64,000 nucleotides of DNA, taken from NCBI RefSeq assembly GCF_058153355.1, contig NZ_CM177019.1. One strand, 5' to 3'. Both the position numbers and the translations under genes were made by a program. Under the pieces are notes generated by a model that saw only the letters and a program-made list of their open reading frames with translations, searched no databases and was not told where the DNA came from. Positions 4,309 to 50,047 of the stretch are shown here, piece after piece. Position 1 is the first letter of the stretch. Every line of letters starts with the position of its first letter.

Positions 4309-6024
4309 TTACTCCACTTCCTGCCAGTTTTTCCGCTTACTGGTTTTACCGATCCCCGGATTCATGCTGTTGGTCGGATCGTTCTCGCGATAGAACTTCT
4401 GCAACGTCTCCGGTGCTTTATACAAATGACCGACGTTATGCTCGGCAGGGTATTGCGCGCCGCGCTGCTGTAGCAGTTCCAGCATCTGTTCTTTCAACGC
4501 ATGCACATCCACGCCTTTTTTAACGATGTAATCCTGATGGAAGACATAGCACATAAAATGGCCGTAATAGAGCTTGTGCACCAGCTGGCAGTCGATCTCC
4601 GGCGGTAAATGCTCATACCACTCGGTGTCGTTACGCCGCAGAGCGATATCCAGCGCCAGAATGTCTTCGACTTCATCGGAATGCACGGCCTGATAACGAA
4701 TTGCTGCGCCCGCAGCGGCGAAACGGTGTAAAAACGCTTTGCTGCCTTCCTCCGGCGTACAGACAAAGAAATCGCCCTCGGCCTGTTTGAAATAATCCAC
4801 CAGCCACGATTTAGCTTCGCCGACGCCATCGCCCGCCATTTTTAACAGCAGATGATGTTCATATTTATCGCGCCAGCTTTTCATGCGCGGTGGTAAATGG
4901 CTGGGGAACAAGTGACCGAATTTTTGCATCGCACGGTCGGTAAAATGCGGACGGAAGAATTTCACTTTCTCCAGCATCGCATCGGTGCGTCCCTTGAGAT
5001 TAAAGAAGAACGGCATCTTGTCGGTGCCTAACTTATCAATCATCAGGAAGGTATCTTTGCCGTATTTTTCCGCAATATCGTAGATATCCCGGTGCATATA
5101 TTCCCCGGCAACTGGCAGATTTTCGAAATTAGCCAGAATATGACGGCGGATTTCGGTCAGTACTTCCGGCTGGTTGGTGCCGATATAAAACACCTGCTGG
5201 TTTTTTTCCGCTTCGAAGGTATCAAGACGTACCGCAAAGACGGCCAGTTTACCGGCGCAACCGGAGGATTCAAACAGGCGATCCGGGTCGGCGTTATAAC
5301 GTGCGGGTGTGTCGGCTTCAATATCACGAACGCGGTGGACATAGTCATAATCGTGGGCGTGACGACCATCGTGGCGAATATCATCTTCTTTGATGCGATC
5401 GTCATCCAGCTTGCTAAGGATCTGCTCCGGCGTTTCGCCCAGATCAATCCCCAGATGATTCACCAGCGTCAGTTTGCCTTCTTCATTTATACGCGCGAAT
5501 AACGACATTTCGGTATACGCCGGGCCACGCTGCACCAGCGAGCCGCCGGAGTTGTTACAAATACCGCCGATGACCGATGCGCCTATACACGATGATCCAA
5601 TCACTGAGTGCGGTTCGCGTCCCAGCGGTTTGAGGGCTTTTTCCAGCGAATAGAGTGTGGTGCCCGGATAGGCCAGCACCTGTTCGCCCTTACCGAGTAC
5701 GTGCAGCTTGTCGAGACGCAGGGTGCTGATGATCACGATATCGCGATCATAATCGTTACCGTTTGGCGTCGATCCTTCGGTCAGACCTGTATTGGCGGCC
5801 TGCATCAGAATAATTTTGTCGGCGGTGACGCAGGCTTTCAGCACCCGCCACAATTCCAGTAGTGAGCCAGGGAAAACGACAGCCAGCGCGTCGCCCTGAC
5901 CAGAACGGAAGCCCTTGCGATAGCGGGCCGTTTTTGCGGGATCGGTGAGCAGGTGTGAATGACCGACCAGACGGGCAAGTTCATTCAAAAAGGCTTTATT
6001 ATCAGTTGTTGTCATGGAAGACAT
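4309..6024 (-). CDS. dld: FAD-dependent membrane-associated D-lactate dehydrogenase
   Basis: 571-aa ORF recognised as Dld; start set at MSSMTTTDNK, which has an AAGGAG ribosome-binding site 6 nt upstream (the track ORF begins 11 codons earlier). Confidence 0.9.
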   Translation of the reverse strand: MSSMTTTDNKAFLNELARLVGHSHLLTDPAKTARYRKGFRSGQGDALAVVFPGSLLELWRVLKACVTADKIILMQAANTGLTEGSTPNGNDYDRDIVIISTLRLDKLHVLGKGEQVLAYPGTTLYSLEKALKPLGREPHSVIGSSCIGASVIGGICNNSGGSLVQRGPAYTEMSLFARINEEGKLTLVNHLGIDLGETPEQILSKLDDDRIKEDDIRHDGRHAHDYDYVHRVRDIEADTPARYNADPDRLFESSGCAGKLAVFAVRLDTFEAEKNQQVFYIGTNQPEVLTEIRRHILANFENLPVAGEYMHRDIYDIAEKYGKDTFLMIDKLGTDKMPFFFNLKGRTDAMLEKVKFFRPHFTDRAMQKFGHLFPSHLPPRMKSWRDKYEHHLLLKMAGDGVGEAKSWLVDYFKQAEGDFFVCTPEEGSKAFLHRFAAAGAAIRYQAVHSDEVEDILALDIALRRNDTEWYEHLPPEIDCQLVHKLYYGHFMCYVFHQDYIVKKGVDVHALKEQMLELLQQRGAQYPAEHNVGHLYKAPETLQKFYRENDPTNSMNPGIGKTSKRKNWQEVE

Positions 6025-6219: not shown

Positions 6220-8517
6220 ATGAAATGGCTATGTTCAGTAGGAATCGCGGTGAGTCTGGCCCTGCAGCCAGCACTGGCGGATGATTTATTCGGCAACCAT
6301 CCATTAACGCCCGAAGCGCGGGATGCGTTCGTCACCGAACTGCTTAAGAAAATGACAGTTGATGAGAAAATTGGTCAGCTGCGCTTAATCAGCGTCGGCC
6401 CGGATAATCCGAAAGAGGCGATCCGCGAGATGATCAAAGACGGGCAGGTTGGGGCGATTTTCAACACCGTAACCCGTCAGGATATCCGCGCCATGCAGGA
6501 TCAGGTGATGGAATTAAGCCGCCTGAAAATCCCTCTTTTCTTTGCTTACGACGTGCTGCACGGTCAACGCACGGTTTTCCCGATTAGCCTCGGTCTGGCC
6601 TCTTCTTTTAATCTTGATGCGGTGAAAACGGTCGGGCGTGTCTCTGCTTATGAAGCCGCAGATGATGGCCTGAACATGACCTGGGCACCGATGGTCGATG
6701 TCTCGCGCGATCCGCGCTGGGGACGTGCTTCCGAAGGTTTTGGCGAAGATACGTATCTCACTTCGATTATGGGTAAAACCATGGTGGAAGCGATGCAGGG
6801 TAAAAGCCCGGCAGATCGCTACTCGGTGATGACCAGCGTCAAACACTTTGCCGCTTACGGCGCGGTAGAAGGTGGTAAAGAGTACAACACCGTCGATATG
6901 AGTCCGCAGCGCCTGTTTAATGATTATATGCCGCCGTACAAAGCGGGGCTGGACGCAGGCAGCGGCGCGGTGATGGTGGCGCTGAACTCGCTGAACGGCA
7001 CGCCAGCCACCTCCGACTCCTGGCTGCTGAAAGATGTTCTGCGCGACCAGTGGGGCTTTAAAGGCATCACCGTTTCCGATCACGGCGCAATCAAAGAGCT
7101 GATTAAACATGGCACGGCGGCAGACCCGGAAGATGCGGTGCGCGTGGCACTGAAATCGGGCATCAACATGAGTATGAGCGACGAGTATTACTCGAAGTAT
7201 CTGCCTGGGTTGATCAAATCCGGCAAAGTGACGATGGAAGAGCTGGATGACGCTGCCCGTCATGTACTGAACGTGAAATATGATATGGGGTTGTTTAACG
7301 ACCCGTACAGCCATCTCGGTCCGAAAGAGTCTGACCCGGTGGATACCAATGCCGAAAGCCGCCTGCACCGCAAAGAAGCGCGTGAAGTGGCACGCGAAAG
7401 CCTGGTGTTGCTGAAAAACCGTCTCGAAACGTTACCGCTGAAAAAATCAGCCACCATTGCGGTGGTTGGGCCACTGGCGGACAGCAAACGTGACGTGATG
7501 GGCAGCTGGTCCGCAGCCGGTGTTGCCGATCAATCCGTGACCGTACTGACCGGGATTAAAAATGCCGTCGGTGAAAACGGTAAAGTGCTGTACGCCAAAG
7601 GGGCGAACGTTACCAGTGACAAAGGCATTATCGATTTCCTGAATCAGTATGAAGAGGCGGTCAAAGTCGATCCGCGTTCGCCCCAAGAGATGATTGATGA
7701 AGCGGTGCAAACCGCGAAACAATCTGATGTGGTGGTGGTTGTGGTCGGTGAAGCTCAGGGGATGGCGCACGAGGCTTCCAGCCGTACCGATATTACTATT
7801 CCGCAAAGCCAACGTGACTTGATTGCGGCGCTGAAAGCCACCGGTAAACCGCTGGTGCTGGTGCTGATGAACGGACGTCCACTGGCGCTGGTGAAAGAAG
7901 ATCAGCAGGCTGATGCGATTCTGGAAACCTGGTTTGCGGGGACTGAAGGCGGTAATGCGATTGCCGATGTGTTGTTTGGCGATTACAACCCGTCGGGCAA
8001 GCTGCCGATGTCCTTCCCGCGTTCTGTCGGGCAGATCCCGGTGTACTACAGCCATCTGAATACCGGTCGGCCGTATAATGCCGACAAGCCGAACAAATAC
8101 ACTTCGCGTTATTTTGATGAAGCTAACGGGGCGCTGTATCCGTTCGGCTATGGTCTGAGCTATACCACCTTCACCGTCTCTGATGTGAAACTTTCTGCGC
8201 CGACCATGAAGCGTGACGGCAAAGTGACCGCCAGTGTGCAGGTGACGAACACCGGTAAGCGCGAAGGGGCGACGGTAGTGCAGATGTACTTGCAGGATGT
8301 GACGGCTTCCATGAGTCGCCCGGTGAAGCAGCTGAAAGGCTTTGAGAAAATCACCCTGAAACCGGGCGAAACTCAGACCGTCAGCTTCCCGATTGATATC
8401 GAGGCGCTGAAGTTCTGGAATCAACAGATGAAATATGACGTCGAGCCTGGCAAGTTCAATGTCTTTATCGGCACTGATTCCGCACGCGTTAAGAAAGGCG
8501 AGTTTGAGTTGCTGTAA
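6220..8517 (+). CDS. bglX: Periplasmic beta-glucosidase (glycoside hydrolase family 3)
   Basis: Signal peptide (MKWLCSVGIAVSLALQPALA) and GH3 motifs; start at the ATG after AGAGGAAGA (25th codon of the track ORF). Confidence 0.9.
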   Translation: MKWLCSVGIAVSLALQPALADDLFGNHPLTPEARDAFVTELLKKMTVDEKIGQLRLISVGPDNPKEAIREMIKDGQVGAIFNTVTRQDIRAMQDQVMELSRLKIPLFFAYDVLHGQRTVFPISLGLASSFNLDAVKTVGRVSAYEAADDGLNMTWAPMVDVSRDPRWGRASEGFGEDTYLTSIMGKTMVEAMQGKSPADRYSVMTSVKHFAAYGAVEGGKEYNTVDMSPQRLFNDYMPPYKAGLDAGSGAVMVALNSLNGTPATSDSWLLKDVLRDQWGFKGITVSDHGAIKELIKHGTAADPEDAVRVALKSGINMSMSDEYYSKYLPGLIKSGKVTMEELDDAARHVLNVKYDMGLFNDPYSHLGPKESDPVDTNAESRLHRKEAREVARESLVLLKNRLETLPLKKSATIAVVGPLADSKRDVMGSWSAAGVADQSVTVLTGIKNAVGENGKVLYAKGANVTSDKGIIDFLNQYEEAVKVDPRSPQEMIDEAVQTAKQSDVVVVVVGEAQGMAHEASSRTDITIPQSQRDLIAALKATGKPLVLVLMNGRPLALVKEDQQADAILETWFAGTEGGNAIADVLFGDYNPSGKLPMSFPRSVGQIPVYYSHLNTGRPYNADKPNKYTSRYFDEANGALYPFGYGLSYTTFTVSDVKLSAPTMKRDGKVTASVQVTNTGKREGATVVQMYLQDVTASMSRPVKQLKGFEKITLKPGETQTVSFPIDIEALKFWNQQMKYDVEPGKFNVFIGTDSARVKKGEFELL

Positions 8518-8526
8518 TGCTTTAGT

Positions 8527-8550
8527 AAGGGCGCGACGTCTGCGCCCTTT

Positions 8551-8552
<2 letters not shown>
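8527..8552 (+). terminator. Hairpin downstream of bglX
   Basis: aagggcgc-gacgtct-gcgccctt stem-loop followed by a short T run. Confidence 0.4.
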
Positions 8553-8650
<98 letters not shown>

Positions 8651-8789
8651 AACGCCGGGCAAAATATGCCCTTTAAGTATTTATCTGATTCTGCAACTGA
8701 ATCCTTCCGCTCAGGCTAACCCCGCCATTATCAACTATGCTTTTCTCTTAATTCGCTGAAAACAACAGTAAAAGAATGAGGAAAGCATC

Positions 8790-9707
8790 ATGCCACTCTC
8801 AAAGCTCTGGGCAGGTTCACTGGTTTTGTTGGCAGCCGTGAGCCTGCCGCTACAGGCGGCTTCCCCCGTTAAAGTCGGTTCGAAAATCGATACCGAAGGC
8901 GCGCTACTCGGCAACATTATTTTGCAAGTGCTGGAAAGCCACGGCGTACCGACGGTGAATAAAGTCCAGTTGGGAACCACGCCGGTGGTGCGCGGGGCGA
9001 TTACTTCCGGTGAACTGGATATCTATCCGGAATATACCGGCAATGGCGCGTTTTTCTTTAAAGATGAAAACGATGCGGCGTGGAAAAATGCCGGGCAAGG
9101 CTACGAGAAAGTCAAAAAGCTCGATGCAGAACAAAACAAGTTAATCTGGCTGACGCCTGCGCCTGCAAATAACACCTGGACCATCGCCGTGCGTCAGGAT
9201 GTTGCAGAGAAAAACAAACTCACTTCGCTTGCCGACCTGAGTCGTTATCTGAAAGACGGTGGCACCTTCAAACTGGCGGCCTCAGCAGAGTTTATCGAAC
9301 GCGCCGATGCCTTACCCGCTTTTGAAAAAGCCTATGGCTTTAAGCTCAGTCAGGATCAGTTGCTGTCACTGGCCGGTGGCGACACTGCGGTGACAATCAA
9401 AGCTGCTGCCCAGCAAACATCCGGCGTTAATGCGGCGATGGCTTACGGCACCGACGGCCCGGTCGCGGCGCTGGGGCTGCAAACCTTAAGCGATCCGCAA
9501 GGCGTGCAACCTATCTACGCGCCTGCACCAGTGGTGCGTGAATCGGTGTTGAAGGAGTATCCGCAAATGGCACAGTGGCTACAGCCAGTCTTCGCCAGCC
9601 TCGATGCAAAAACATTGCAGCAACTGAATGCCAGCATTGCTGTGGAAGGACTGGATGCCAAAAAAGTGGCTGCCGACTACCTGAAACAAAAAGGGTGGAC
9701 GAAGTAA
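8790..9707 (+). CDS. osmF: Periplasmic glycine betaine/osmoprotectant-binding protein of an ABC transporter
   Basis: Signal peptide plus substrate-binding protein fold; first gene of a binding-protein/permease/ATPase/permease operon. Confidence 0.9.
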   Translation: MPLSKLWAGSLVLLAAVSLPLQAASPVKVGSKIDTEGALLGNIILQVLESHGVPTVNKVQLGTTPVVRGAITSGELDIYPEYTGNGAFFFKDENDAAWKNAGQGYEKVKKLDAEQNKLIWLTPAPANNTWTIAVRQDVAEKNKLTSLADLSRYLKDGGTFKLAASAEFIERADALPAFEKAYGFKLSQDQLLSLAGGDTAVTIKAAAQQTSGVNAAMAYGTDGPVAALGLQTLSDPQGVQPIYAPAPVVRESVLKEYPQMAQWLQPVFASLDAKTLQQLNASIAVEGLDAKKVAADYLKQKGWTK

Positions 9708-46484: not shown

Positions 46485-46518
46485 TACTCCCCCCCAGTAC
46501 CTGATACTACCCCCAGTA
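46485..46518. promoter_or_regulatory. Tandem RcnR operator sites in the rcnA-rcnR divergent promoter
   Basis: TACT-C7-AGTA at 46485-46499 and TACT-AC5-AGTA at 46505-46518, the G/C-tract inverted repeats described for RcnR/CsoR-family binding. Confidence 0.6.
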
Positions 46519-46566
46519 GAATAATAGTGCTATGATTTTTCATGTTCTTGTTAACCAGGTGTTGCC

Positions 46567-46839
46567 ATGTCTCATACAATCCGTGATAAACAGAAACTGA
46601 AAGCGCGTGCCAGTAAGATTCAGGGCCAGGTCGTGGCGCTCAAGAAAATGCTCGACGAGCCGCACGAATGCGCAGCTGTTCTACAACAGATTGCTGCTAT
46701 CCGTGGCGCGGTAAACGGCCTGATGCGCGAAGTGATTAAGGGGCATCTGACGGAACACATCGTTCACCAGGGGGATGAGCTAAAACGTGAAGAAGATCTG
46801 GATGTCGTTCTGAAGGTGCTGGATTCTTATATCAAATGA
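46567..46839 (+). CDS. rcnR: Ni/Co-responsive repressor (CsoR/RcnR family)
   Basis: 90-aa ORF recognised as RcnR. Confidence 0.9.
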
Positions 46840-46908
46840 AAGTGCCTAATATGGCCGTAGTTGAGGCAATAAATAGAGGGACAAGTGACGTTAAGCTGAA
46901 TTAGAGTA

Positions 46909-46932
46909 AATGGCGTGAGGACACACGCCATT
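46909..46932. terminator. Hairpin between rcnR and the convergent small-protein gene
   Basis: aatggcgtg-aggaca-cacgccatt. Confidence 0.4.
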
Positions 46933-46948
46933 CGAGGATATAGTTTGA

Positions 46949-47263
46949 TTAATTTTCGAAAAATTGCTTCACAGCCCAGCCACCATGACCACCTGGAGTT
47001 ATGAATGAAACAAAACCTTTGTCATCGACGCTCTGGATTTCTACTGTCATTGATTCATCTAACACGCGACATTTATTGGATGTAATGAGACTCAGCATAG
47101 CCTGTTGGTCATTGTCCTGGATGTAACTGATCATCTCGTAAAAGTCAGTTAACTTTTTACAGTTAAATGTACCTTCTTTAAGTGTTGCGCTGTCTCCGTG
47201 ACTTAGTGCGAATGCATTTGGCATCATTGCCACAAAGATGACGGTAACGAGTAGTTTTTTCAT
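46949..47263 (-). CDS. Small secreted hypothetical protein (104 aa)
   Basis: Signal peptide (MKKLLVTVIFVAMMPNAFA); lies in a visibly AT-rich segment. Confidence 0.55.
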   Translation of the reverse strand: MKKLLVTVIFVAMMPNAFALSHGDSATLKEGTFNCKKLTDFYEMISYIQDNDQQAMLSLITSNKCRVLDESMTVEIQSVDDKGFVSFITPGGHGGWAVKQFFEN

Positions 47264-47272
47264 TGTAGCCTC

Positions 47273-47620
47273 TTATAATTCAGAACATTCACTGATGTTG
47301 TAAGTGCCTTTTCTACCATCATCGTTTACGAGATGTAGCACGAAGATGATGGGATTGGCATCAATGAAAGATACAGAGACGTTCCCGCTTTCGGTGCTAT
47401 ACATCTTTGCAATCTGTTTTTCACCAATATATGAAAGATCCCAACTCACTCCGTTCAAGCTAAAATGCATCTGTTTGCCGTCAATATCGATGGAGGATTG
47501 TGCCGTAACGGTTTTCCCATTGCTGCCAATTTGACCCTGCTGAAGAGCATCACATTTATAGGAGCTTGCATAAGTAAATAGAGGTAGTAGCAGAAGTGCA
47601 GCAAAAATTTTACTCTTCAT
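47273..47620 (-). CDS. Small secreted hypothetical protein (115 aa)
   Basis: Signal peptide (MKSKIFAALLLLPLFTYASS), two Cys residues; 9 nt upstream of the 104-aa ORF, so probably a bicistron. Confidence 0.55.
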   Translation of the reverse strand: MKSKIFAALLLLPLFTYASSYKCDALQQGQIGSNGKTVTAQSSIDIDGKQMHFSLNGVSWDLSYIGEKQIAKMYSTESGNVSVSFIDANPIIFVLHLVNDDGRKGTYNISECSEL

Positions 47621-48258
47621 ATTTTCCCTTTGCTTGGATTTGAGTTACCTATTTTGGGGTAGTCATTATAAAACTATTAATTAGTAAAATGAACAAGTTT
47701 TCATTTGTTTAGTAATGGTATTGTTTAGGTTTGAAATTATTACGTACTTTCATAGCAATAGGTTGGATAAACAGCAGTTCAGAGAACAAGTTGCACTATC
47801 TACATACTTTCCCGCTTTCCATTGTATGTTAGGTAATAGATAGCCTTTGCCCGTAAGACTAAAAATATTAGAAATGACTCATTCGAATACCTTCTATTCA
47901 CCTTAATATAGGTTTGATTATTGTAATCGTTTAATGTGTCTTATGGATTTTTTCCTACTTTTCATTTGCATAATATAGGGGGCACAGCATGCTCTTGAAA
48001 TTAATTATTAAGATATTTAAATTTTACAGCACACAACTACTTTTCGTTGTCTTATGTGTTGAACGTACTTCGAGTATAGGTAGGGTTGTATATATATTGC
48101 GTGGGTAGAGTTAGAATAGAGGAGGCATCATTTATAGAATATTCAAGAACGTTAACCTGTGATCAATAAATAAAAATATCAAATGGTGTTCAAACATATT
48201 TTTCTATGAAAAATCCAGCCATCTATGATGAATTTTTAGATCCATTTTAATTAAAGTA

Positions 48259-48537
48259 TGATTATGAACCAATATTTAGCCAAGAATGGTGGTATAGCGC
48301 GTATCCAATGACACCGGAAAACGCATCTATGAAGTCCTTGTTTATCTCTATAAGAGGAAATCAACACTAATAAAATATAGTGATGTAACACATCGAGCAG
48401 GTTGCTCTGATGCTGGTCTTCAACTGTGGCTTAAACAGCTATCAAACTTCGGTGTTATTGAGATGAAAGAATTATCTTTCTCAACTTTCAATCTCAAAAA
48501 GCTAGAGGAAATAGACCTTAATTATTCCACTCTCTAA
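48259..48537 (+). pseudogene. Possible frameshifted gene remnant
   Basis: ATG-initiated frame MIMNQYLAKNGGIARIQ* continues after a +1 shift as …VSNDTGKRIYEVLVYLYKRKSTLIKYSDVTHRAGCSDAGLQLWLKQLSNFGVIEMKELSFSTFNLKKLEEIDLNYSTL*; no clean start or RBS for the long frame. Confidence 0.2.
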
Positions 48538-48673
48538 ACTTATCTCTTTATTTAAAGTAAAAATGAAAATATTATGGTATCAGCTACGTGGTGGTAACTG
48601 GTGTTTATGATCATAGGTACACATATACAGGGAACCCTGGAAAACAAAAGTAATATATTGATGATTTCGTTTG

Positions 48674-48913
48674 TTATAACTTCGTGGTATCAAGTCCGGC
48701 GGCTTTGAGTCGCTCGGTAAGATTTCTCATTTTGCTGAACTCTGTACCAAAGCTGGCTTTAAGTCCTACACCTTCGCAAAACTCTTTTGCCGTGACGTTT
48801 TTAAGATGGTCAGCGTATTTGATCATCTGGAGGTGCATTTCCATCGTTTGGCTATTTCGTGGTGCGCTGCTAATGGCTTGCTTAATGTTCTCGTAGATCT
48901 GGGTTTCTGTCAT
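48674..48913 (-). CDS. Hypothetical 79-aa protein
   Basis: Intact ORF (MTETQIYENIKQAISSAPRNSQ…) with AT-rich upstream region containing tandem direct repeats. Confidence 0.5.
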   Translation of the reverse strand: MTETQIYENIKQAISSAPRNSQTMEMHLQMIKYADHLKNVTAKEFCEGVGLKASFGTEFSKMRNLTERLKAAGLDTTKL

Positions 48914-48934
48914 TTTTTATCTCACCTATCAAAT

Positions 48935-48964
48935 TTAGATAAATAATATAAATTAGATAAATAA
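48935..48964. promoter_or_regulatory. Two direct repeats TTAGATAAATAA (18-bp register) just upstream of the 79-aa ORF
   Basis: Exact 12-nt repeats at 48935-48946 and 48953-48964. Confidence 0.3.
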
Positions 48965-49129
48965 GATAATCAATAGTTTTTACCATATGAATAATGGATG
49001 TGGATTGTTTCTTTTTCATTTCTGATATGGAGTACAAAATGGGGTCACAATGAAGAAGCGATGAATGGAGGCGAGCTTGCATCTGCAAGCCTCTTCCCCT
49101 AATCTGGCACAAAATATAGAGATTCAACC

Positions 49130-49258
49130 AAACGACTCGGGGTGCCCTTCTGCGTGAAGGCTGAGAAATACCCGTATCACCTGATCTGGATAATGCCAGC
49201 GTAGGGAAGTCACGGACCACCAGGTCATTGCTTCTTCACGTTATGGCAGGAGCAAACT
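49130..49258 (+). ncRNA. TPP (THI-box) riboswitch in the thiM leader
   Basis: cggggtgcccttctgcgtgaaggctgagaaatacccgtatcacctgatctggataatgccagcgtagggaa matches the canonical thiM aptamer; the expression platform runs into the thiM ribosome-binding site. Confidence 0.8.
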
Positions 49259-50047
49259 ATGCAAGTCGACCTGCTGAGTTCCGCGCAATCTGCGCACGCG
49301 TTACACCTTTTTCACCAACATTCCCCTCTTGTGCATTGCATGACCAATGATGTGGTGCAAACCTTTACTGCCAATACCTTGCTGGCGCTCGGTGCATCGC
49401 CAGCGATGGTTATCGAAACCGAAGAAGCCAGTCAGTTTGCGGCTATCGCCAGTGCCTTGCTAATTAACGTCGGCACGCAGACGCAGCCACGCGCACAGGC
49501 GATGCGTGCTGCCGTTGAACAGGCAACACACTCTCAAACCCCCTGGACGCTTGATCCGGTCGCGGTTGGCGCACTCGATTATCGTCGCCGTTTTTGTCAT
49601 GAACTTTTATCTTTTAAACCGGCAGCGATACGTGGTAATGCTTCGGAAATCATGGCATTAGCTGGCGTTGCTAATGGTGGACGGGGAGTGGACACCACTG
49701 ACGCCGCAGCTAATGCGATACCCGCTGCACAAACACTGGCACGGGAAACTGGCGCAATCGTCGTGGTCACAGGCGAGGTGGATTATGTTACCGATGGTCG
49801 TCGCACCGTTGGCATTCACGGCGGCAATCCGTTAATGACCAAAGTGGTAGGAACTGGCTGTGCATTATCGGCAGTTGTCACTGCCTGTTGCGCATTACCA
49901 GGCGATATGCTGGAAAATATCGCATCTGCCTGTCACTGGATGAAACAAGCCGGAGAACGCGCCGTCGCCAGAAGTGAAGGGCCTGGCAGTTTTGTTCCCC
50001 ATTTTCTTGATGCGCTCTGGCAATTGACGAAGGAGGTGCAGGCATGA
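49259..50047 (+). CDS. thiM: Hydroxyethylthiazole kinase
   Basis: 262-aa ORF recognised as ThiM, directly downstream of the riboswitch. Confidence 0.9.

What the first reader, a model, noticed from the sequence alone, without database searches (positions are those of the whole stretch)
48674..48964. 79-aa ORF with tandem TTAGATAAATAA direct repeats in its promoter/5' region
The only intact ORF at the right edge of the islet (MTETQIYENIKQAISSAPRNSQTMEMHLQMIKYADHLKNVTAKEFCEGVGL…) has two exact 12-nt direct repeats 22-51 nt upstream of its start codon, spaced 18 bp apart. This is a plausible binding site for a dimeric or autoregulatory factor. The protein has no motif I can assign.
Basis: seen in the sequence. 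Interest (0 to 1): 0.35.

Follow-up and report, generated by a model that had tools for sequence, protein, structure and literature searches.

The report
Orphan RptR repressor with its operator
The 79-aa gene encodes a close relative of RptR, a small repressor of phage-defence islands described in 2025, and the two 12-nt repeats are its own operator sites over its promoter, so the finding is real but already explained; here the regulator has no defence genes left to control.

Summary
The ORF lies at 48674-48913 (-). Exact TTAGATAAATAA copies lie at 48935-48946 and 48953-48964, 22-51 nt upstream, and are rare in local shuffles (12/5000).

The protein is not unassignable. It matches Pfam HTH_73 (E 6.5e-31) and is 70% identical to RptR of EPEC (PDB 9R2Z). 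The predicted fold superposes at TM 0.94. All published DNA-contact and dimer residues are kept.

RptR is a dimeric autorepressor. It binds 9-bp direct repeats (TTTAGCTAA; core TAGCTA, with TAGATA/TATCTA/TATATA tolerated) over its own -10 box.

Read in the gene's direction, the window shows TTTATCTAA-TTTATATTA-TTTATCTAA. That is two canonical cores 18 bp apart flanking a degenerate unit that is the predicted -10, the published "DR1/s/3" layout. The cores sit at the same distances from the ATG as in EPEC-type, Salmonella and Vibrio loci.

One-residue variants of this protein are already listed as RptR homologues in that paper.

What differs is that no cargo follows the gene. In E. coli B strains the same slot holds a predicted methyl-directed restriction enzyme.

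The islet is a decayed integrative element that targets the thiM TPP riboswitch.

Verdict: already known, low interest.

The parts
48674..48913 (-). rptR homologue, 79 aa (Pfam HTH_73; RptR family)
   Evidence: PGAP annotates the identical locus as 'HTH-like domain-containing protein'.
48921..48926 (-). Shine-Dalgarno-like GGTGAG, 8-13 nt upstream of the ATG
   Evidence: Read from the sequence.
48935..48943 (-). Proximal operator unit TTTATCTAA (core TATCTA = 48936-48941, -28..-23 from the ATG). It covers the expected transcription start.
   Evidence: A TATCTA core lies at -27 to -32 in the O157, B7A/HB42, ST12468, RRDM, Salmonella and V. cholerae loci. BL21 (degenerate TATCAA there) and plasmid locus L007 lack it.
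48944..48952 (-). Middle unit TTTATATTA. Its core TATATT (48945-48950) is one mismatch from the tolerated TATATA and is the predicted -10 hexamer.
   Evidence: -10 TATATT at 48950..48945.
48953..48961 (-). Distal operator unit TTTATCTAA (core TATCTA = 48954-48959, -46..-41). It lies in the promoter spacer.
   Evidence: This position is TAGCTA in O157, BL21 and RRDM, and a degenerate TTGCTA in B7A/HB42.
48962..48973 (-). Predicted -35 TTGATT (48968-48973), overlapping a fourth in-phase near-site TATCTT (48963-48968). That position is a canonical TATCTA in BL21/ST12468.
48540..48673 (-). Empty 'cargo slot' downstream of rptR: no ORF and no predicted terminator. Homology to the BL21 rptR-DUF6998 operon ends 14 bp after the stop codon.
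48307..48504 (+). 5'-truncated remnant of the element's 81-aa hypothetical gene, convergent with rptR
   Evidence: tblastn: residues 16-81 of the B7A protein, 82% identity. Not annotated in the identical RefSeq locus.
48232..49124 (.). Right arm of a thiM-riboswitch-targeting integrative element (87.7% identical to the B7A element). The whole islet spans 46840-49124.
49125..49206 (+). 82-bp att repeat, equal to the 5' part of the thiM TPP aptamer (Rfam TPP match 49128-49224)

Best explanation
The ORF encodes an RptR-family transcriptional repressor, and the repeats are its own operator.

RptR is a 79-aa, four-helix homodimer. Its two alpha-4 helices read a 6-bp core (TAGCTA, with G5/T5 and C6/A6 tolerated). 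Dimers bind cooperatively to cores spaced 9 bp apart that overlap the -10 box of the rptR promoter.

In the gene's direction the window promoter reads:
TTGATT(-35) ... TTTATCTAA TTTATATTA TTTATCTAA ... GGTGAG(SD) ... ATG.
Two canonical TATCTA cores (-46 and -28) flank a degenerate middle unit that is itself the -10 hexamer. A fourth near-site overlaps the -35. Occupation by RptR dimers would occlude RNA polymerase and give negative autoregulation.

Shown here: family membership by sequence and predicted fold, conservation of all published contact and dimer residues, and the presence, phasing and positional conservation of the sites.

Inferred from the published EPEC experiments: binding and repression themselves.

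In characterised loci rptR heads a defence operon (Type I R-M with or without DarTG2). In E. coli B and related strains the same thiM-adjacent slot holds rptR followed by a DUF6998 protein, a predicted methyl-directed restriction enzyme. In this window nothing follows rptR. The gene is therefore an orphan regulatory head left at the right end of a decayed integrative element, whose only evident target is its own promoter.
For: Protein family and residues:
- Pfam HTH_73, E 6.5e-31, full length.
- phmmer to PDB 9R2Z 'Transcription factor', E 2e-32. 9R2Z is RptR.
- 55/79 identity to an EPEC-type RptR.
- AlphaFold model pLDDT 93.8 with four helices. Foldseek top hits are 9r2z_B/A at TM 0.94/0.93 and rmsd 1.0-1.2 A, with nothing else below E 1.
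- T57, E58, S60, K61 (DNA contacts) and E25, L65, R68, L69, A72, L74 (dimer) are all present. GTEFSKMRNLT is invariant in 21 homologues.

Published mechanism:
- RptR binds 9-bp direct repeats containing TAGCTA. C6A is tolerated.
- TAGATA/TATCTA/TATATA are counted as sites.
- Two sites suffice for repression, including when separated by a non-site (DR1/s/3).
- 9 of 21 natural two-site promoters have that layout.

Sites in this window and in relatives:
- Cores at 48936 and 48954 are the only pair at 9/18/27-bp spacing among 28 cores in 64 kb.
- A phased pair arose in 24/5000 local shuffles.
- The same register (-46/-47, -37/-38, -28/-29) holds in the O157, B7A/HB42, BL21/ST12468 and RRDM loci, plus a plasmid hsdMSR locus with sites at -48/-39. 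Phased arrays of 3-4 cores occur upstream of the Salmonella and V. cholerae homologues that precede hsdM-hsdS-...-hsdR.
- Predicted promoter TTGATT-17-TATATT overlaps the array.

Prior listing: alleles one residue away (WP_000141034.1, WP_000141032.1) and the BL21 allele (WP_001318412.1) appear in the paper's tables of RptR homologues.

Selection: synonymous changes dominate between alleles, dN/dS about 0.03 against B7A and BL21.
Against: - No binding or expression data exist for this allele.
- Both canonical cores here are the TATCTA variant, not the optimal TAGCTA. In the paper's two-repeat EMSA context any core substitution reduced binding, so repression may be weaker than in EPEC.
- The middle unit is a one-mismatch non-site.
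- The B7A/HB42 allele keeps only one canonical core. This suggests operator erosion where there is no cargo.
- The usual reason for RptR, a toxic defence operon downstream, is absent here.
- The low dN/dS may largely predate cargo loss, so it does not prove that the orphan is still under selection.
Confidence: 0.87

Rival explanations
1. The orphan RptR is retained because it acts in trans. It might repress RptR-type operators on other or incoming defence islands, by analogy with cross-regulation proposed for controller proteins of restriction-modification systems (from my own knowledge, not checked here). Alternatively it might drive regulated antisense transcription into the convergent element genes.
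For: The coding sequence is strongly conserved (dN/dS about 0.03). The DNA-reading helix is invariant across the family, so any RptR should recognise any RptR operator. No terminator is predicted after the gene. The thiM-adjacent orphan alleles occur in roughly 8% of complete E. coli genomes, including O157:H7.
Against: No second phased site pair exists in the 64-kb window or inside the intact B7A element. The near-identical genome NZ_CP098223.1 holds a single rptR place. The conservation could be inherited from cargo-bearing ancestors, or be hitch-hiking next to the element-derived thiM upstream region.
Confidence: 0.1
2. The repeats are a chance or slippage product of AT-rich, probably H-NS-bound, horizontally acquired DNA with no protein-specific role, and the ORF is a silent relic.
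For: The region is 80-83% A+T. The exact 12-nt identity is allele-specific: O157, B7A and BL21 differ in the distal copy. The neighbouring genes are decayed.
Against: A repeat of 12 nt or more arose in 12/5000 local shuffles, and phased cores in 24/5000. The cores fall at the same positions relative to the ATG as experimentally validated RptR sites in loci only about 65% identical at the DNA level. The ORF is intact with all functional residues.
Confidence: 0.03

Closest known systems
RptR (RMS-proximal transcriptional regulator) of EPEC E2348/69, WP_000343040.1, PDB 9R2Z (Zhang et al., NAR 2025, PMC12255303)
   Same: 79 aa, 70% identical, same four-helix fold (TM 0.94), identical DNA-contact and dimer residues. 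Own promoter carries 9-bp-phased TAKMTA cores at -46/-37/-28, overlapping the -10. One-residue variants of this very protein are in the paper's homologue tables.
   Different: No Type I R-M/DarTG2/M48 cargo downstream. The cores are TATCTA-(TATATT)-TATCTA rather than TAGCTA-TAGCTA-TATCTA. The predicted -35/-10 sit about 12 bp closer to the ATG. The gene lies at the end of a thiM-riboswitch-targeting element rather than an IS-flanked island.
rptR-DUF6998 pair of E. coli B/C strains (BL21(DE3) B21_RS10565/RS10570)
   Same: Same chromosomal slot next to the thiM riboswitch. The protein is 75/79 identical. The operator is in the same register, with up to four units.
   Different: The B-strain gene is followed 46 bp later by a 143-aa DUF6998 protein that matches PADLOC 'mREase_II', a Type II methyl-directed restriction enzyme, at E 7.6e-101. 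It is present in 89 genomes. In the window, homology stops 14 bp past the rptR stop codon.
Controller (C) proteins of Type II restriction-modification systems
   Same: Small dimeric autoregulators bound to repeated operator sites over their own promoter, gating expression of a restriction system. The RptR authors draw this comparison.
   Different: C proteins are lambda-cI-like HTH proteins that read longer sites across adjacent major grooves. RptR is modelled reading a 6-bp palindrome within one major groove and is unrelated in sequence and fold: no PDB neighbour other than 9R2Z scored below E 1.

Membership tests
RptR family (Pfam PF24718 HTH_73) | Single-domain protein of about 79 aa matching the family profile over its full length | tested here: met
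   PF24718 E 6.5e-31, 106.5 bits against a cut-off of 27, residues 2-71 of 79. phmmer to 9R2Z E 2e-32.
RptR family (Pfam PF24718 HTH_73) | Four-helix fold of 9R2Z with a long C-terminal alpha-4 | tested here: met
   Model pLDDT 93.8 with helices 3-16, 19-32, 42-49 and 55-71. Foldseek 9r2z_B TM 0.94, rmsd 1.0 A. This is a predicted, not solved, structure.
RptR family (Pfam PF24718 HTH_73) | Conserved DNA-contact residues Thr57-Lys61 (Glu58 and Lys61 invariant) | tested here: met
   T57 E58 F59 S60 K61 are present. The block G56-T66 is invariant in the 21-sequence alignment.
RptR family (Pfam PF24718 HTH_73) | Dimer-interface residues Glu25, Leu65, Arg68, Leu69, Ala72, Leu74 | tested here: met
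   All are present in the window protein. Dimerisation itself is not testable with these tools.
RptR family (Pfam PF24718 HTH_73) | At least two TA[G/T][C/A]TA cores in 9-bp register in its own promoter, overlapping the -10 | tested here: met
   TATCTA at -46 and -28, with the TATATT -10 at -37 in phase. Rare in shuffles. Same register as the RRDM, Salmonella and Vibrio loci.
RptR family (Pfam PF24718 HTH_73) | Sequence-specific binding to the repeats and repression of its own promoter | not testable with these tools
   Shown only for EPEC RptR by EMSA and GFP reporter.
RptR-controlled defence island (RRDM-type operon) | rptR is the first gene of an operon encoding a Type I R-M or other defence module | tested here: not met
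   No ORF or cargo remnant downstream. The next sequence is a 134-bp spacer and a convergent truncated gene. The association held for 54/117 homologues in the paper, so it is typical but not defining of the protein family.
   No adjacent co-oriented ORF. No PADLOC or NCBIfam match for the 79-aa protein.

The most novel reading that the evidence does not exclude
The cargo-less rptR may be kept by the element or the host as a trans-acting repressor. It could silence or delay any incoming RptR-controlled restriction or defence island, or time expression of a swappable cargo slot at the end of a thiM-riboswitch-targeting integrative element. The element family is itself unusual: its att site is the TPP aptamer, and its integrase sits 66 nt behind a still-recognisable aptamer copy. 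That arrangement could make integrase expression respond to thiamine.
Probability: 0.12. Interest if true: 0.5.

Novelty: already known. Interest (0 to 1): 0.17.

Why it matters
The finding confirms that a tool-free reader correctly spotted a real autoregulatory operator. It adds little new biology, because RptR, its structure, its 6-bp core and the two-sites-with-a-spacer layout were published in 2025, and alleles of this locus are in that paper's tables.

The small added value is descriptive. Roughly 8% of complete E. coli genomes, including O157:H7, carry a thiM-adjacent rptR with no defence cargo. B and C strains carry the same head in front of a predicted methyl-directed restriction enzyme. 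This suggests that rptR plus its operator works as a portable regulatory head with exchangeable cargo.

Tried and rejected
- NCBIfam gave no family for the 79-aa protein. PADLOC gave none either.
- PHROGs matched only an unnamed family, phrog_30666.
- tblastn against 50,697 phage records found nothing, so this is not a phage gene in that collection.
- Terminator scans and RNA folding downstream of the stop codon found no intrinsic terminator.
- An Rfam scan of 46500-49400 found only the thiM TPP riboswitch.
- A search for further phased RptR cores in the 64-kb window and in the B7A, BL21 and ST12468 elements found none outside the rptR promoters. A second cis target is therefore not supported.
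- tblastn of the BL21 DUF6998 protein and of B7A element proteins against 46800-49300 found no cargo remnant. It found only the truncated 81-aa gene and a 42%-identical paralogue of the 115-aa ORF.
- The antitoxin reading was rejected for lack of a partner gene.
- The 25-aa hydrophobic ORF seen in B7A/HB42 has no Pfam match.
- Two full-text searches for integration into the thiM/TPP riboswitch returned nothing relevant. That does not establish novelty.

Full report
**Setting.** The window is E. coli chromosome: yehA, rcnB, rcnA, rcnR, then an islet (46840-49124), then the thiM TPP riboswitch (49128-49224), thiM, thiD, yegX, yegW. A RefSeq genome (NZ_CP098223.1) is 99.9-100% identical across the islet. 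It annotates the 79-aa ORF as 'HTH-like domain-containing protein'.

**1.
- The ORF is 48674..48913 on the minus strand and encodes 79 aa.
- TTAGATAAATAA occurs exactly twice in 64 kb, at 48935-48946 and 48953-48964, 18 bp start-to-start and 22-51 nt upstream of the ATG.
- The repeat finder extends the pair to two adjacent 18-nt units that are 16/18 identical.
- Against dinucleotide-preserving shuffles of the local 80% A+T sequence, an exact direct repeat of 12 nt or more arose in 12 of 5000 trials.
- A sigma-70-like promoter on the gene's strand, TTGATT-17 nt-TATATT (48973..48945), lies directly over the repeats.

**2. What the protein is.**
- It matches Pfam PF24718 (HTH_73) end to end at E 6.5e-31.
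- It matches PDB entry 9R2Z at E 2e-32.
- A full-text search for 9R2Z leads to Zhang et al., NAR 2025 (PMC12255303), which defines RptR, the 'RMS-proximal transcriptional regulator'.
- The window protein is 55/79 (70%) identical to the EPEC-type protein.
- An AlphaFold model (pLDDT 93.8, four helices) superposes on 9r2z at TM 0.94 and rmsd 1.0 A. No other PDB neighbour scores below E 1.
- Every residue the paper implicates is present: DNA contact (T57-K61, with E58 and K61 invariant) and dimerisation (E25, L65, R68, L69, A72, L74). The alpha-4 block GTEFSKMRNLT is invariant across 21 homologues from Escherichia, Salmonella, Vibrio, Shewanella and others.

**3. What the repeats are.** The paper reports the following.
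- RptR is a homodimer that represses its own promoter.
- It binds three 9-bp direct repeats, TTTAGCTAA (core TAGCTA), 58-31 bp upstream of the start codon and overlapping the -10 box.
- Position 6 tolerates A, and by symmetry position 5 tolerates T. TAGATA, TATCTA and TATATA therefore count as sites.
- Two sites suffice for full repression, even when a non-site separates them (DR1/s/3). 9 of 21 natural two-site promoters have that layout.

Read in the gene's direction, the window sequence is:
...TTGATTATCTTA TTTATCTAA TTTATATTA TTTATCTAA ATTTGATAGGTGAGATAAAAA ATG.

It parses as follows.
- Their TATCTA cores sit at -46 and -28.
- The middle unit (TATATT, one mismatch from TATATA) is the predicted -10.
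- A fourth in-phase near-site (TATCTT) overlaps the -35.

These are the only two cores at 9/18/27-bp spacing among 28 cores in the window. Such a phased pair arose in 24/5000 local shuffles.

**4. Comparative support gathered here**.

| Locus | Cores and positions relative to the ATG |
|---|---|
| O157:H7 EDL933 | TAGCTA -45, TATCTA -27 |
| BL21 | TATCTA -56, TAGCTA -47 |
| ST12468 | TATCTA -56, TAGCTA -47, TATCTA -29 |
| Two RRDM islands as in the paper (rptR-hsdM-hsdS-darT-darG-hsdR-M48) | TAGCTA -47, TAGCTA -38, TATCTA -29 |
| Plasmid rptR-hsdMS-DUF262x2-hsdR | TAGCTA -48, TAGCTA -39 |
| Salmonella rptR-hsdM-hsdS-GmrSD_N-AAA_15-(no Pfam)-hsdR | three phased cores |
| V. cholerae equivalents | four phased cores |

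The exact 12-nt identity in the window is allele-specific, because the distal core here is TATCTA where O157 has TAGCTA. The underlying 9-bp array is conserved in loci that are only about 65% identical in DNA.

**5. Already in the literature.** The paper's supplementary tables of RptR homologues list three relevant alleles.
- WP_000141034.1, the O157 allele, is one residue from the window protein.
- WP_000141032.1, the B7A/HB42 allele, is also one residue away.
- WP_001318412.1 is the BL21 allele.

The locus is therefore a catalogued member of a characterised family.

**6. What differs: an orphan.**
- In the window no gene follows rptR. There is a 134-bp spacer without a predicted terminator.
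- After the spacer comes a convergent, 5'-truncated remnant of an 81-aa gene, at 48307-48504.
- In BL21(DE3) and 88 other genomes the same slot holds a 143-aa DUF6998 protein. It matches PADLOC 'Type II methyl-directed restriction enzyme' at E 7.6e-101.
- Homology between the two arrangements ends 14 bp past the rptR stop codon. rptR plus its operator therefore behaves as a conserved head with exchangeable or lost cargo.
- Between alleles, synonymous changes dominate. Window against B7A shows 7 synonymous and 1 non-synonymous change. Window against BL21 shows 24.5 and 4.5, giving dN/dS of about 0.03. That divergence may predate cargo loss.
- The B7A/HB42 operator has eroded to a single canonical core.
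- No other phased sites occur in the window or inside the related elements.

**7. Caveats.**
- Binding and repression are inferred from EPEC RptR, not shown for this allele.
- Both cores here are the TATCTA variant. In the paper's two-repeat EMSA any core substitution weakened binding.
- Expression is untested.

**8. Origin of the islet (side result).**
- In strain B7A a 7,796-bp element lies between rcnR and thiM. It is bounded by perfect 82-bp direct repeats that are the 5' part of the thiM TPP aptamer.
- The left copy still scores as a TPP aptamer (61.3 bits, gathering threshold 54.3). It sits 66 nt upstream of a co-oriented tyrosine integrase.
- The element also carries a Cro/CI-type HTH gene, a resolvase, 13-bp iterons and an HTH_36 protein. 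rptR lies at the right end.
- The integrase-bearing form is in 168 of 5426 complete genomes.
- The window-type islet, in 339 genomes including O157:H7, keeps only the right arm (48232-49124).
- Because K-12 homology resumes about 6 bp before the aptamer, the DNA immediately upstream of the thiM riboswitch is element-derived in these strains.

**Verdict.** The feature is an RptR-family autorepressor with its operator, here without cargo. It is already known and of low interest. The riboswitch-targeting element is a separate lead.

Noticed in passing
L017 (B7A, NZ_CP035812.1 2944000-2960000) 7507-7588 and 15303-15384; window 49125-49206: A 7.8-kb integrative element uses the thiM TPP riboswitch aptamer as its attachment site. 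Perfect 82-bp direct repeats of the aptamer's 5' part flank it. The integrase-bearing form is in 168/5426 E. coli genomes, and the window islet is a decayed derivative. Two full-text searches found no description of this target, which is not proof of novelty.
   Followed up: partly
L017 7510-7605 (attL aptamer) and 7672-8979 (integrase): The left-end aptamer copy still passes the Rfam TPP threshold (61.3 bits, with a weakened P1). It lies 66 nt upstream of, and co-oriented with, the element's tyrosine integrase, behind the native rcnR-thiM spacer. Integrase expression might therefore be read from the thiM promoter and respond to thiamine pyrophosphate.
   Followed up: partly
window 48964-49127: In islet-bearing strains the 91-bp K-12 rcnR-thiM spacer is replaced, and K-12 homology resumes only about 6 bp before the TPP aptamer. 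The thiMD upstream or promoter region is therefore element-derived. The simple sigma-70 scan finds no + strand promoter there.
   Followed up: partly
window 49029-49052; L004 (BL21) about 6340-6380; L017 about 7650-7668: Short GGTACAA/GGGGT repeats lie near both element ends: three copies in BL21, and one just before the integrase ATG in B7A. They are candidate arm-type integrase-binding sites. Next to them is a GC-rich hairpin, GCGAGCTTGCATCTGCAAGCCTC, at window 49073-49095.
   Followed up: no
L005 (B7A) about 5937-6014 +; window 48575-48598 +: B7A/HB42 carry an unannotated 25-aa hydrophobic ORF (MVIAMWWLLFFMLVETYASKSGKQK) with an upstream AAAGGAAAA. It is convergent with rptR and sits inside the would-be rptR 3' read-through. 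It looks like a type I toxin but has no Pfam match. In the window and in O157 it is cut to 7 codons by a stop.
   Followed up: partly
L017 12965-13081: About seven tandem 13-bp iterons (AAATAAGCCACTT) lie upstream of a 60-aa ORF and a 239-aa HTH_36 protein in the intact element. This suggests a replication origin and initiator module, so the element may be satellite- or plasmid-like. The region is absent from the window.
   Followed up: no
L004 (BL21(DE3)) 5537-5968, minus strand: E. coli B and C strains encode, directly downstream of rptR, a 143-aa DUF6998 protein that matches PADLOC 'mREase_II' (methyl-directed restriction enzyme) full length at E 7.6e-101. It is a candidate RptR-controlled solitary restriction enzyme in common laboratory strains.
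   Followed up: partly
window 46949-47263 and 47273-47620, minus strand: The left part of the islet holds two small ORFs with signal-peptide-like N-termini: 104 aa (annotated 'outer membrane protein') and 115 aa. The 115-aa protein is 42% identical to a 115-aa ORF of the B7A element. Neither has a significant Pfam family.
   Followed up: no
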